This document shows, piece by piece, positions 42,448-45,959 of a DNA stretch of 64,000 bases. Positions within the stretch are counted from its first letter, which is position 1, and each line of letters starts with the position of its first letter. Where the stretch lies: NCBI RefSeq assembly GCF_009914755.1, contig NC_060925.1; one strand, written 5' to 3'. The position numbers and the translations under genes were made by a program. The DNA is from the human T2T-CHM13v2.0 reference genome, Homo sapiens. Below the pieces are notes generated by a model, which was given only the letters and a program-made list of their open reading frames with translations, did no database searches and was not told where the DNA came from.

Positions 42448-43514
42448 TTTTTTTTCTTTTTTTTTTATTATACTTTAAGTTTTAGGGTACATATGCATAA
42501 CGTGCAGGTTAGTTACATATGTATACATATGCCATGTTGGTGTGCTGCACCCATTAACTCCATTAACTCGTCATTTAACATTAGGTATATGTCCTAATGC
42601 TATCCTCCCCCTGCCCCCCACCCCACAACAGGCCCCAGTGTGTGATGTTCCCCTTACTGTGTCCATGTGTTCTCATTGTTCAATTCCCACCTATGAGTGA
42701 GAACGTGCAGTGTTTGGTTTTCTGTTCTTGCAATAGTTTCCTGAGAATGATGGTTTCCAGCTTCATCCATGTCCCTACAAGGGACATGAACTCATCATTT
42801 TTTATGGCTGCATGGTATTCCATGGTGTATATGTGCCACATTTTCTTAATCCAGTCTATCATTGTTGGACATTTGGCTTGGTTCCAAGTCTTTGCTATTC
42901 TGAATAGTGCCACAATAAACACACGTGTGCATGTGTCTTTATAGCAGCATGATTTATAATCCTTTGGATATATACCCAGTAATGGGATGGCTGGGTCAAA
43001 TGGCATTTCTAGTTCTAGATCCCTGAGGAATCGCCACACTGACTTCCACAAGTTTACAGTCCCACCAACAGTGTAAAATGTTCCTATTTCTCCACATCCT
43101 CTCCAGCACCTGTTGTTTCCTGACTTTTTAATGATTACCATTCTAACTGGTGTGAGATGGTATCTCACTGTGGTTTGGATTGGCATTTCTCTGATGGCCA
43201 GTGATCATGAGCATTTTTTCATGTGTCTTTTGGCTGCATAAACGTCTTCTTTTGAGAAGTGTCTGTTCATATACTTCACCCACTTGTTGATGGGGTTTTT
43301 TTTGTTGTAAATTTGTTTGAGTTCATTGTCGATTCTGGATATTAGCCCTTTGTCAGATGAGTAGATTACAAAAATTTTCTCCCATTCTGTATGTTGCATG
43401 TTCAGTCTGACAGTAGTTTCTTTTGCTGTGCAGAAGCTCTTCAGTTTAATTAGATCCCATTTGTCAATTTTGGCTTTTGTTGCCATTGCTTTTGGTGTTT
43501 TAGACATGAAGTCC
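42448..43514 (-). mobile_element. L1PA 3' end with its own poly(A), inverted arm
   Basis: T tail at 42448-42466, antisense 3' UTR and ORF2 C-terminus. Confidence 0.95.
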
Positions 43515-45866
43515 ATCCCTGGGATGCAAGGCTTGTTCAACATATGCAAACCAATAAACGTAATCCAGCATATAAACAGAACCAATGACAAAAACCACAT
43601 GATTATCTCAATAGATGCAGAAAAGGCCTTTGATAAAATTCAACAATGCTTCATGCTAAAAACTCTCAATAAATTAGGTATTGATGGGAGTATCTCAAAA
43701 TAATAAGAGCTATCTATGACAAACCCACAGCCAATATCATACTGAATGGGAAAAACTGGAAGCCCATTCCCTTTGAAAACTGGCACAAGACGGGGATGCC
43801 CTCTCTCACCACTCCTATTCAACATAGTGTTGGAAGTTCTGGCCAGGGCAATCAGGCAGGAGAAGGAAATAAATGGTATTCAATTAGGAAAAGAGGAAGT
43901 CAAATTGTCCCTGTTTGCAGATGACATGATTGTATATCTAGAAACCCCATTGTCTCAGCCCAAAATCTCCTTAAGCTGATAGGCAACTTCAGCAAAGTCT
44001 CAGGATACAAAATCAATGTGCAAAAATCACAAGCATTCTTATACACCAATAACAGACAAACAGAGAGCCAAATCATGAGTGAACTCCCATTCACAATTGC
44101 TTCAAAGAGAATAAAATACCTAGGAATCCAACTTATAAGGGATGTGAAGGACCTCTTCAAGGAGAACTACAAACCACTGCTCAACGCAATAAAAGAGGAT
44201 ACAAACAAAAGGAAGAACATTCCATGCTCATGGGTGGGAAGAACGAATATCATGAAAATGGCCATATTGCCCAAGGTAATTTATAGATTCAATGCCATCC
44301 CCACCAAACTACCAATGACTTTCTTCACAGAATTGGAAAAAACTACTTTAAAGTTCATATGGAACCAAAAAAGAGCCCACAACACCAAGTCAATCGTAAG
44401 CCAAAAGAACAAAGCTGGAGGCATCACACTACCTGACTTCAAACTATACTACAAGGCTACAGTAACCAAAACAGCATGGTACTGGTACCAAAACAGAGAT
44501 ATAGACCAATGGAACAGAACAGAGCCCTCAGAAATAATGCCGCATATCTACAACCATCTGATCTTTGACAAACCTGACAAAAACAAGAAATGGGGAAACG
44601 ATTCCCTATTTAATAAATGGTGCCGGGAAAATGGCTAGCCATATGGCCAGTTTCAGAAAGCTGAAACTGGATCCCTTCCTTACACCTTATACAAAAATTA
44701 ATTCAAGATGGATTAAAGACTTAAATGTTAGACCTGAAACCATAAAAACCCTAGAAGAAAACCTAGGTAATACCATTCAGGACACAGGCATCGGCAAGGA
44801 CTTCATGTCTAAAACACCAAAAGCAATGGCAACAAAAGCCAAAATTGACAAATGGGATCTAATTAAACAAAAGAGCTTCTGCACAGCAAAAGAAACTATC
44901 ATCAGAGTGAACAGGGAACCTACAGAATGGGAGAAAATTTTCGCAATCTACTCATCTGACAAAGGGCTAATATCCAGAATCGACAATGAACTCAAACAAA
45001 TTTACAACAAAAAAACAAACAACCCCATCAACAAGTGGGCAAAGGATATGAACAGACACTTCTCAAAAGAAGACGTTTATGCAGCCAAAAGACACATGAA
45101 AAAATGCTCATGGTCACTGGCCATCAGAGAAATGCCAATCAAAACCACAATGAGATACCATCTCACACCAGTTAGAATGGCAATCATTAAAAAGTCAGGA
45201 AACAACAGGTGCTGGAGAGGATGTGGAGAAATAGGAACACTTTTACACTGTTGGTGGGACTGTAAACTTGTGGAAGTCAGTGTGGTGATTCCTCAGGGAT
45301 CTAGAACTAGAAATACCATTTGACCCAGCCATCCCATTACTGGGTATATACCCAAAGGATTATAAGTCATGCTGCTATAAAGACACATGCACACGTGTGT
45401 TTATTGCGGCACTATTCACAATAGCAAAGACTTGGAACCAAGCCAAATGTCCAAAAAATGATAGACTGGATTAAGAAAATGTGGCATATATGCACCATGG
45501 AATACTATGCAGCCATAAAAAATGATGAGTTCATGTCCCTTGTAGGGACATGGATGAAGCTGGAAACCATCATTCTCAGGAAACTATTGCAAGGACAGAA
45601 AACCAAACACTGCATGTTCTCACTCATAGGTGGGAATTGAACATTGAGAACACATGGACACAGGAAGGGGAACATCACACACTGGGGCCTGTTGTGGGGT
45701 AGGGGGCAGGGAAGGGATAGCATTAGGAGATATAACTAATGTTAAATGAGGAGTTAATGGGTGCAGCACACCAACATGGCACATGTATACATATGTAACT
45801 AACCTGCACGTTGTGCACATGTACCCTAAAACTTAAAGTGTAATTTTAAAAAAAGTAAAAATAAAT
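43514..45866 (+). mobile_element. L1PA (about PA3-4) ORF2 RT to 3' end with A-rich tail
   Basis: ORF2 fragments ([41 protein letters not shown]...) and 3' UTR ...ccctaaaacttaaag. Confidence 0.95.
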
Positions 45867-45959
45867 AAGAATTTTCAAATGAAAAACAAAGAAACAAAAA
45901 ACACCCACCATATCAAATATTAAAACTGACAAGTGTTCTAATATTTATATATTGGAATC

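What the first reader, a model, noticed from the sequence alone, without database searches (positions are those of the whole stretch)
42448..45875. Two-tailed, head-to-head L1PA: the 3' ~1 kb is duplicated in inverted orientation with shared private variants
Seen: the minus arm (42448-43514) and the plus arm (43514-45866) join directly with about 1 nt of overlap, and both end in a poly(A) tail pointing outward. The minus arm repeats ~44800-45845 of the plus arm. Both arms carry the same departures from the L1PA consensus as I recall it: aatcGacaatg, tttacaaCaa, gaagacGtttatg, aaatgcCaatc, aaGccaaatgtcc, ctcagGaaacta, and the same ~11-nt deletion (gactgtaaac^ttgtggaag). The unrelated L1PA copies at 8973 and 18079 lack this deletion. 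Known: classical twin-priming inversions copy sequence upstream of the breakpoint and have one tail. Inference: both nicked target strands primed on poly(A), either of one RNA (ORF2p has no RNase H) or of two RNAs from one source element. A possible degenerate TSD is aaaatagcaaatttt (42437-42451) / aaataagaatttt (45863-45875), A-rich at one end and T-rich at the other as this model needs. The result is a ~1.05-kb inverted repeat with a ~1.3-kb spacer, a substrate for inversion or dsRNA.
Basis: partly seen in the sequence, partly recalled or inferred. Interest (0 to 1): 0.8.

Follow-up and report, generated by a model that had tools for sequence, protein, structure and literature searches.

The report
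Two-tailed head-to-head L1 pair
Two broken-off L1 retrotransposon tail ends sit nose to nose with their poly(A) tails pointing outward, a rare arrangement that was probably made in one insertion event and whose two arms later swapped sequence with each other.

Summary
Window 42448-43514 (minus) and 43514-45866 (plus) are two 5'-truncated L1 3' ends joined head to head with 1 nt of overlap, each with an outward A-tail. The minus arm repeats the last ~1.05 kb of the plus arm (1013/1078 identical). Both arms carry an 11-nt deletion whose junction occurs nowhere else in the 3.1-Gb assembly, plus 5-8 substitutions absent or nearly absent from 28 close genomic L1 copies.

The interpretation needs correction. 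The shared variants include a frameshift and a nonsense codon in ORF2. They are 6:0 AT-to-GC, and no third copy carries them. They therefore look like in-place decay spread between the arms by GC-biased gene conversion, not the mark of a source element. The proposed target-site duplication is no better than chance.

The architecture still favours one event in which both DNA ends were primed on poly(A). This is the "dual priming" model speculated in 2010, and it resembles two-template insertions seen recently in cells and tumours. Rivals not excluded are a second insertion with a target deletion next to an older L1, and a DNA-level fold-back duplication. Primate orthologues would decide. I rate it a new example of a known kind, of moderate interest.

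The parts
42448..42466 (-). A-tail of the minus arm, seen on the + strand as T8 C T10. It abuts unique left flank.
   Evidence: Sequence. The left flank 42050-42447 has only itself as a match in the assembly.
42467..43514 (-). Minus arm: the 3' ~1.05 kb of an L1 (end of ORF2 plus 3' UTR), 5'-truncated at 43514.
   Evidence: it is the best non-self hit of the plus arm, at 1633 bits.
43514..43514 (.). Head-to-head junction with 1 nt (C) that could belong to either arm.
   Evidence: Alignment to 8 longer L1 copies.
43515..44792 (+). Part of the plus arm present only once. It forms the 1,278-nt spacer of the inverted repeat and lies in the ORF2 reverse-transcriptase region.
   Evidence: It differs from the majority state of 8 L1 copies at 47 of 1263 sites. 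There is a weak match to the end of RVT_1, E 9.6e-4, below the Pfam cut-off.
44793..45844 (+). Part of the plus arm that is repeated, inverted, as the minus arm.
   Evidence: There are 42 substitution differences in 1036 compared sites.
45845..45869 (+). A-rich tail of the plus arm. Its right limit is uncertain, and A-rich sequence continues to about 45899.
   Evidence: Sequence.
45259..45276 (+). Junction of the shared 11-nt deletion in the plus arm. The mirror site in the minus arm is 43043-43060. The deletion shifts the ORF2 frame about 0.38 kb before the ORF2 stop.
   Evidence: The frame running through it ends at 45323.
45111..45113 (+). Codon where both arms carry C-to-G. The minus arm reads TGA (stop) at 43205-43207. 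The plus arm reads TGG after a further private change.
   Evidence: The minus-strand open frame stops at 43205.
45897..46917 (+). Neighbouring block that may or may not belong to the event: about 1.01 kb that is 93.9% identical to a stretch of contig C11. It ends 19-24 nt after an AATAAA and is followed here, but not on C11, by A7. It looks like a 5'-truncated retrocopy in the same orientation as the plus arm.
   Evidence: No target-site duplication was found for it.

Best explanation
The structure was made in one retrotransposition event that built both arms. After the L1 endonuclease broke the target, the 3' end of the bottom strand primed reverse transcription on an L1 poly(A) tail and copied about 2.35 kb, giving the plus arm. 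The T-rich 3' end of the top strand (...AAATTTT) also primed on a poly(A) tail rather than inside the RNA, and copied about 1.05 kb, giving the minus arm. The two unfinished cDNAs were then joined 5' end to 5' end by end joining with 1 nt of microhomology at 43514. This is the 'dual priming' variant of twin priming. Whether one RNA was copied twice or two RNAs were used cannot be told.

The resulting 1.05-kb inverted repeat with a 1.28-kb spacer then went through a period of GC-biased gene conversion between its arms. That period spread mutations that arose in place, including the 11-nt deletion and the stop codon, to both arms. Afterwards the arms drifted apart to 4% divergence.

Shown: the architecture, the uniqueness of the shared variants, their disabling nature and their AT-to-GC bias. 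Inferred: the priming on both strands, the single event, and the conversion.
For: Architecture. Both arms start at an L1 3' end with an outward tail and meet directly. Neither arm has flanks that could serve as its own target-site duplication: the sequence beyond each arm's 5' end is the other arm.

Contrast with classical twin priming. The inverted piece is nested in the direct piece, with about 1.05 kb copied twice. In 4 reference loci with classical inversions (3 independent: L010, the L014/L018 pair and L024), out of 36 examined, the pieces are adjacent: gap 23 nt, overlap 2 nt, gap 6 nt. In print the overlap of twin-priming cDNAs has a median of 12 bp (PMC12016303, passages).

Arm lengths. 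The arms measure 2353 and 1067 nt, a ratio of 2.2. This is close to the 2.6-fold ratio reported for the poly(dT)-primed versus second cDNA (preprint 10.1101/2024.08.27.596794, passages).

Precedent. Insertions with two oppositely oriented reverse-transcribed sequences from different RNAs were read as both DNA ends having been extended by reverse transcription (PMC11702581, section 7).

Conversion. The arms are sisters (support 0.994, stem 0.0138). The shared rare substitutions are 6 AT-to-GC against 0 GC-to-AT, versus 11:21 for arm-private changes (P=0.0045) and 130:120 for reference singletons (P=0.031). The shared state kills ORF2. No third carrier exists in the assembly. GC-biased arm-to-arm conversion is documented for human palindromes (PMC3723533 and PMC8981503; only the search listing and the start of each abstract were seen).
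Against: No target-site duplication can be shown. The score is 7, while 10 of 22 simple L1 copies of similar age score 13 or more against a null 95th percentile of 12. The same holds when the C11-derived block is included.

There is no long tract of identity between the arms. The longest run is 105 nt, P=0.41, so any conversion is old.

The AT-to-GC test was thought of after seeing the data and rests on 6 sites.

The right flank is itself another retrocopy-like block, so the original target is unclear.

Once conversion is accepted, the shared variants no longer argue for a single event. That inference then rests on architecture alone.
Confidence: 0.5

Rival explanations
1. There were two separate insertions. 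An ordinary, possibly longer, plus-oriented L1 was already present. Later a second L1 of the same subfamily inserted in the opposite orientation with a target-site deletion that removed the flank and the 5' part of the older copy, so that the two 5' ends came to abut. Gene conversion then made the arms alike.
For: No target-site duplication for the composite could be shown. Conversion is indicated anyway, and it would erase any original differences. Target-site deletions accompany about 7% of germline L1 insertions (PMC12016303, Table 1 passage).
Against: It needs two uncommon steps plus conversion over at least 725 bp (44982-45707). Where the arms differ, the only site that varies among the reference copies is 44942, so nothing points to two different subfamilies. 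The stretch that may have escaped conversion (44800-44950) shows no subfamily-type differences either.
Confidence: 0.18
2. The inverted copy arose at the DNA level. A break at the 5' edge or inside an ordinary L1 was repaired by fold-back priming 1.28 kb away. On this reading the minus arm is a DNA copy of the already decayed plus arm.
For: It explains shared disabling mutations without a dead template or conversion. It explains why no other carrier exists in the genome. It explains the missing target-site duplication. The geometry of fold-back synthesis gives exactly this order of segments (inference).
Against: The copy would have to stop inside the A-tail by coincidence. Mutations inherited wholesale should show the ordinary spectrum, but the shared ones are 6:0 AT-to-GC. 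The cluster of differences near the inner end is derived in both arms, 4 in the plus arm and 7 in the minus arm, not only in the supposed new copy.
Confidence: 0.12
3. Both ends were primed on poly(A), but at two separate endonuclease nicks some distance apart. The DNA between them was lost, giving an L1 'bridge' across a deletion like those described in tumours.
For: Two-tailed bridges of two 5'-truncated L1s joined at their 5' breakpoints are described in tumour rearrangements (preprint 10.1101/2024.08.27.596794, passages). No target-site duplication is seen here.
Against: Nothing specific. This rival differs from the best explanation only in what happened to the target, which cannot be read from this genome alone.
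Confidence: 0.1
4. One reading: the shared variants were already in the template, meaning one RNA copied twice or two RNAs from one source element, and no conversion is needed.
For: The arms share a unique deletion and 5-8 rare substitutions, and both tails carry a G after ten bases (column 1123).
Against: The template would have carried a frameshift and a stop codon in ORF2, so it would have needed another element's proteins. By recalled knowledge of L1 cis preference this is inefficient. A decayed, fixed source should still be in the genome, yet no third carrier is found even with up to 2 mismatches allowed. The AT-to-GC excess is unexpected for inherited neutral decay.
Confidence: 0.08

Closest known systems
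Twin priming (5'-inverted L1 insertions; Ostertag and Kazazian 2001; paper not held, known here through papers that cite it and from recall)
   Same: Two cDNAs are made from the two strands of one target and joined head to head with little or no microhomology. The tail-primed piece is about twice as long as the other.
   Different: The second primer sat on poly(A), not inside the RNA. There are two tails. The inverted piece is nested in the direct piece instead of lying upstream of it. About 1.05 kb is copied twice, against a published median overlap of 12 bp and gaps or overlaps of 2-23 nt in the controls here.
Dual priming, and L1s with a 5' poly(T) (Meyer et al. 2010, PMC2837659)
   Same: A poly(T) lies at the 5' side and a poly(A) at the 3' side. 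That paper proposes top-strand priming on a poly(A) tail of the same or a second RNA.
   Different: In their 39 loci the top-strand product never left the tail, so the two models could not be told apart. Here it runs 1,048 nt into the L1 body. The authors called the mechanism speculative and hoped it would be validated later (section 11).
Two-template insertions in L1-expressing cells, and two-tailed L1 bridges in tumours (preprints PMC11702581 and 10.1101/2024.08.27.596794)
   Same: The two sequences have opposite orientation and each begins at a poly(A). They were read as both DNA ends having been extended by reverse transcription and then ligated.
   Different: Those cases are somatic or experimental. 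They mostly involve two different RNAs, or two distant target sites with rearrangement. This one is a germline copy carried in the T2T-CHM13 assembly (fixation in the population was not checked), both pieces are L1, and no rearrangement can be shown.
Arm-to-arm GC-biased gene conversion in sex-chromosome palindromes (PMC3723533 and PMC8981503; only listing and abstract starts seen)
   Same: It is an inverted repeat whose arms share derived states that are enriched in AT-to-GC changes.
   Different: The arms are 1 kb rather than 9 kb to 1.45 Mb. They are now 4% apart, so conversion stopped long ago.

Membership tests
L1 (LINE-1) 3'-end copy | Sequence similarity to the genome's L1 copies | tested here: met
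   The plus-arm query gave 10,318 first-look candidates, and the 40 that were scored are 91-95% identical.
L1 (LINE-1) 3'-end copy | ORF2 reading frame with a reverse-transcriptase domain | tested here: inconclusive
   Seven reference copies keep 286 open codons up to the shared stop. In the window only the end of RVT_1 matches, at E 9.6e-4 and 19.3 bits against a cut-off of 29.6. A 319-aa open C-terminal frame of L028 matched no Pfam family.
L1 (LINE-1) 3'-end copy | Poly(A) tail at the 3' end | tested here: met
   Both arms have one.
L1 (LINE-1) 3'-end copy | Subfamily (L1PA2-5) by diagnostic positions | not testable with these tools
No repeat library is held here.
Classical twin priming | A single poly(A) tail, with the inverted piece taken from upstream of the direct piece | tested here: not met
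   There are two tails, and the inverted piece corresponds to positions 1284-2330 of the 2330-nt direct piece.
Classical twin priming | Target-site duplication around the whole insertion | tested here: inconclusive
   The score is 7, not above chance. The test detects only 10 of 22 known simple insertions of similar age.
Dual priming (both strands primed on poly(A)) | Both oppositely oriented pieces begin at the 3' end and tail, and join internally | tested here: met
Dual priming (both strands primed on poly(A)) | One target site: empty allele with a staggered-cut duplication and T-rich ends on both strands | not testable with these tools
   No primate orthologue is held. The left flank ends in ...AAATTTT. 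The right boundary is ambiguous.
Inverted repeat under gene conversion | Arms closer to each other than to any other copy, with shared derived states | tested here: met
   The arms differ by 4.05%, against a minimum of 4.32% between the plus arm and any reference. They are sisters with support 0.994.
Inverted repeat under gene conversion | AT-to-GC bias of the shared states | tested here: met
   6:0 against 11:21 (P=0.0045) and against 130:120 (P=0.031). The test was post hoc and the sample is small.
Inverted repeat under gene conversion | Recent conversion tracts (long runs of identity) | tested here: not met
   The longest identical run is 105 nt, and simulation gives P=0.41.

The most novel reading that the evidence does not exclude
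The whole stretch 42448-46917 is the product of one germline insertion that used three templates. The bottom strand was primed on the tail of a transcript from contig C11 and copied about 1 kb. The enzyme then switched to the poly(A) of an L1 RNA and copied 2.35 kb. Meanwhile the top strand was primed on the poly(A) of the same or a sister L1 RNA and copied 1.05 kb. That would be a natural, inherited, sequence-level validation of dual priming combined with template switching, outside tumours and cell culture.
Probability: 0.15. Interest if true: 0.6.

Novelty: new member of a known kind. Interest (0 to 1): 0.4.

Why it matters
Dual priming was proposed in 2010 from loci that could not tell it apart from twin priming. 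My one search for 'dual priming' together with 'retrotransposition' found only that paper. A germline locus where the second product runs 1 kb into the element is the kind of case its authors asked for.

The locus also carries a warning. In an inverted repeat, 'private' variants shared by the arms can come from gene conversion, not from the source element, so they cannot be used on their own to trace a source lineage.

Practically, a 1.05-kb inverted repeat with a 1.28-kb spacer could allow inversion of the spacer, or form double-stranded RNA if transcribed. Neither was tested, and no gene is annotated within 10 kb of it in the table supplied with the finding.

Tried and rejected
Target-site duplications. 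I calibrated the test on 22 simple L1 copies of similar age. I also tested the left flank, and the stretch before the C11-derived block, each against the flank after that block. None was above chance.

Looking for an empty site within the same genome. The left flank is unique. The right flank turned out to be a repeat plus a C11 paralogue, not an empty site.

Looking for a source copy. The deletion junction and the two-variant 41-mer occur only in the two arms. I examined 8 of the 38 copies that carry one of the two variants, and none carried any other arm-specific state. The count of 38 may be capped by the tool.

Recent conversion tracts. None were found.

Transition/transversion ratio. Shared versus private changes do not differ significantly (P=0.23).

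Cluster of differences. 11 of the 42 arm differences fall in 44869-44944 (P=0.033, window chosen after seeing the data). This may be a stretch that escaped conversion, but the evidence is only suggestive.

Pfam naming of the arms. The matches were weak or absent.

The original twin-priming paper is not held.

Further literature searches for head-to-head or two-tailed L1 in reference genomes gave only the tumour and cell papers already cited.
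Full report
**What is there.** Window 42448-45866 holds two L1 3' ends in opposite orientation.
- The repeat finder gives five ungapped inverted blocks, 93-97% complementary, covering 42450-43519 and 44793-45861.
- A gapped alignment of the reverse-complemented left part with the right part gives 1013 identities in 1078 columns, 17 of them gaps.
- The left arm (minus strand) begins on the + strand with T8-C-T10 at 42448-42466, the complement of an A-tail, and runs to 43514.
- The right arm (plus strand) runs from 43514/43515 to about 45844 and is followed by A-rich sequence.
- Aligned to 8 longer genomic L1 copies, the plus arm starts at CATCCC and the minus arm ends at GAAGTCC, so one C at 43514 could belong to either.
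- The minus arm repeats the last ~1.05 kb of the 2.35-kb plus arm. The 1,278 nt at 43515-44792 are present once.

**Identity as L1.**
- The plus-arm query found 10,318 first-look candidates in the window's own 3.1-Gb assembly. The 40 that were scored are 91-95% identical.
- Seven of the 28 copies I took as references keep an open frame of 286 codons up to a shared stop.
- Pfam gives only a sub-threshold match to the end of the reverse-transcriptase model in the single-copy part (E 9.6e-4), and nothing for the C-terminal frame of a reference copy.
- No repeat library is held here, so the subfamily was not assigned.

**The shared variants are real and unusual.**
- Both arms lack 11 nt that the window's other two L1 copies have.
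- The 25-nt junction of this deletion occurs only twice in the whole assembly, exactly or with up to 2 mismatches.
- A 41-mer spanning 44982 G and 45008 C also occurs only in the two arms.
- 38 other copies carry one of these two variants. This count may be capped by the tool. None of the 8 I examined has any other arm-specific state.
- Against the 28 references, the arms share 5 substitutions seen in none of them and 8 seen in at most one. Of 378 reference pairs, 333 share none, 40 share one, 2 share two, 1 shares three, and two pairs share 9 and 13.
- L014/L018, both on C15, is the only other supported pair in the tree, so it probably accounts for at least one of those two outliers.
- The arms are sisters in that tree, with support 0.994, stem 0.0138 and tips 0.0185 and 0.0284. 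The median tip of the references is 0.0207.
- Overall the arms are only slightly closer to each other (42/1036, 4.05%) than the plus arm is to its best references (minimum 4.32%, mean 5.3%).
Four further rare shared states were missed.

**What the shared variants mean.** Three results speak against reading them as the mark of a source element.
- *They disable the element.* The deletion shifts the ORF2 frame about 0.38 kb before its stop. The shared C-to-G at 45112 turns TCA into TGA. The minus arm still reads TGA, while the plus arm has since changed it to TGG. Of the 7 shared rare ORF2 substitutions, one is the stop, five change an amino acid and one is silent. A template with these lesions could not have made its own ORF2 protein.
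- *A decayed template should still be in the genome.* Such a template would have been an old resident copy, yet there is no third carrier.
- *The spectrum is skewed.* The shared rare substitutions are 6 AT-to-GC, 0 GC-to-AT and 2 GC-to-GC. The arm-private ones are 11 AT-to-GC against 21 GC-to-AT (Fisher P=0.0045). Singletons in the references are 130 against 120 (P=0.031).

This skew is what GC-biased gene conversion between the arms would leave, as documented for human palindromes (PMC3723533 and PMC8981503; only the listing and abstract starts were seen). The test was chosen after seeing the data and rests on six sites, so I treat it as moderate support.

Conversion, if it happened, is old. 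The 42 differences are spread evenly, with a longest identical run of 105 nt (P=0.41). The one exception is a cluster of 11 differences in 44869-44944, derived in both arms (4 in the plus arm, 7 in the minus arm; P=0.033). No shared rare variant lies in that cluster, so it may be a stretch that escaped conversion.

**Target site.**
26 of 34 unrelated L1 3' flanks score at least as high against the same left flank.
- The test has limited power. Among 22 simple 5'-truncated L1 copies of similar age, 10 score 13 or more, against a null 95th percentile of 12. The absence of a duplication here is therefore weak evidence only.
- The left flank is unique in the genome.
- The right flank is not. Window 45900-46910 is 93.9% identical to a stretch of contig C11. 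The homology ends 19-24 nt after an AATAAA and is followed by A7 in the window but not on C11.
- This looks like a 5'-truncated retrocopy of a polyadenylated C11 transcript. It has the same orientation as the plus arm, lies 55 A-rich nt after the L1 end, and shows 6.1% divergence between the two copies.
- It may have entered with the L1 pieces by template switching, or separately into the A-tail. No duplication supports either reading.

**Origin of the structure.** With conversion in play, the case for one event rests on architecture.
- Neither arm can have its own target-site duplication, because beyond each 5' end lies the other arm.
- The inverted piece starts at the tail and is nested in the direct piece. 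Of the 36 reference loci, 4 (3 independent) show the classical arrangement, with the inverted piece directly upstream of the direct one: gap 23 nt, overlap 2 nt, gap 6 nt. Published overlaps have a median of 12 bp (PMC12016303, passages).
- Meyer et al. proposed exactly this as a twin-priming variant on a long tail, or as 'dual priming' with a second RNA. They could not tell the two apart, because in their 39 loci the top-strand product never left the tail (PMC2837659, sections 9-11 read).
- My search for 'dual priming' together with 'retrotransposition' returned only that paper.
- Since then, nine insertions built from two RNAs have been reported in L1-expressing cells. Those in opposite orientation were read as both DNA ends having been extended by reverse transcription (PMC11702581, section 7).
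- Two-tailed bridges of two 5'-truncated L1s have been described at tumour rearrangements (preprint 10.1101/2024.08.27.596794, passages).
- The supplements of these papers were not seen and may list further cases.

**Verdict.**

| Reading | Confidence |
|---|---|
| One event with both DNA ends primed on poly(A), followed by arm-to-arm conversion | 0.5 |
| A later L1 insertion with a target deletion next to an older L1, plus conversion | 0.18 |
| A DNA-level fold-back copy of an already decayed L1 | 0.12 |
| The same double priming at two separate nicks, with loss of the DNA between them | 0.10 |

**Age.** Half the arm divergence is about 2%, and the single-copy part differs from the majority of 8 references at 47 of 1263 sites, or 3.7%. 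With recalled primate rates of 0.1-0.17% per million years, this suggests roughly 12-30 million years. That is a rough figure resting on recall.

The case is a new example of a kind already proposed and recently seen in somatic cells, and its interest is moderate. Primate orthologues would settle it.

Noticed in passing
window 45897-46917; L043 (G000:C11:36780001-36790000): About 1.01 kb just right of the plus arm is 93.9% identical to a stretch of contig C11. It ends shortly after an AATAAA and is followed by A7 here but not on C11. It looks like a 5'-truncated retrocopy of a C11 transcript. The divergence between the two copies is 6.1%. Part of it (about 45965-46257) also matches an old interspersed repeat at 70-77% identity (543 candidates).
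   Followed up: partly
window 44869-44944 and 43368-43443: 11 of the 42 arm-to-arm differences cluster in 76 nt near the inner end of the repeat, derived in both arms (4 in the plus arm, 7 in the minus arm; binomial P=0.033, window chosen after seeing the data). The reference copies are not variable there.
   Followed up: partly
L010, L014, L018, L024 (and L013, less clear): These reference L1 loci show classical 5' inversions, with the inverted piece directly upstream of the direct one (gap 23 nt, overlap 2 nt, gap 6 nt). L014 and L018, both on C15, are near-identical and group together in the tree, which suggests a segmental duplication.
   Followed up: partly
window 42456 and 45855: Both tails carry a G ten bases after the last L1 bases (TAAT). 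None of the 28 references has a G at that aligned column. Alignment within tails is loose, so this may be shared origin, conversion or chance.
   Followed up: no
G000:C1:157478435-157478475 (about 1.5 kb left of the window start), L036: A neighbouring L1 copy carries the rare 44982-type G but none of the other arm-specific states. It is probably a recurrent mutation.
   Followed up: yes
window 42561-42569 and 43298: Indels private to the minus arm: a 9-nt insertion, apparently a tandem duplication (my reading of the alignment, not checked), in the 3' UTR part, and a 6-nt deletion in an A-rich run.
   Followed up: no
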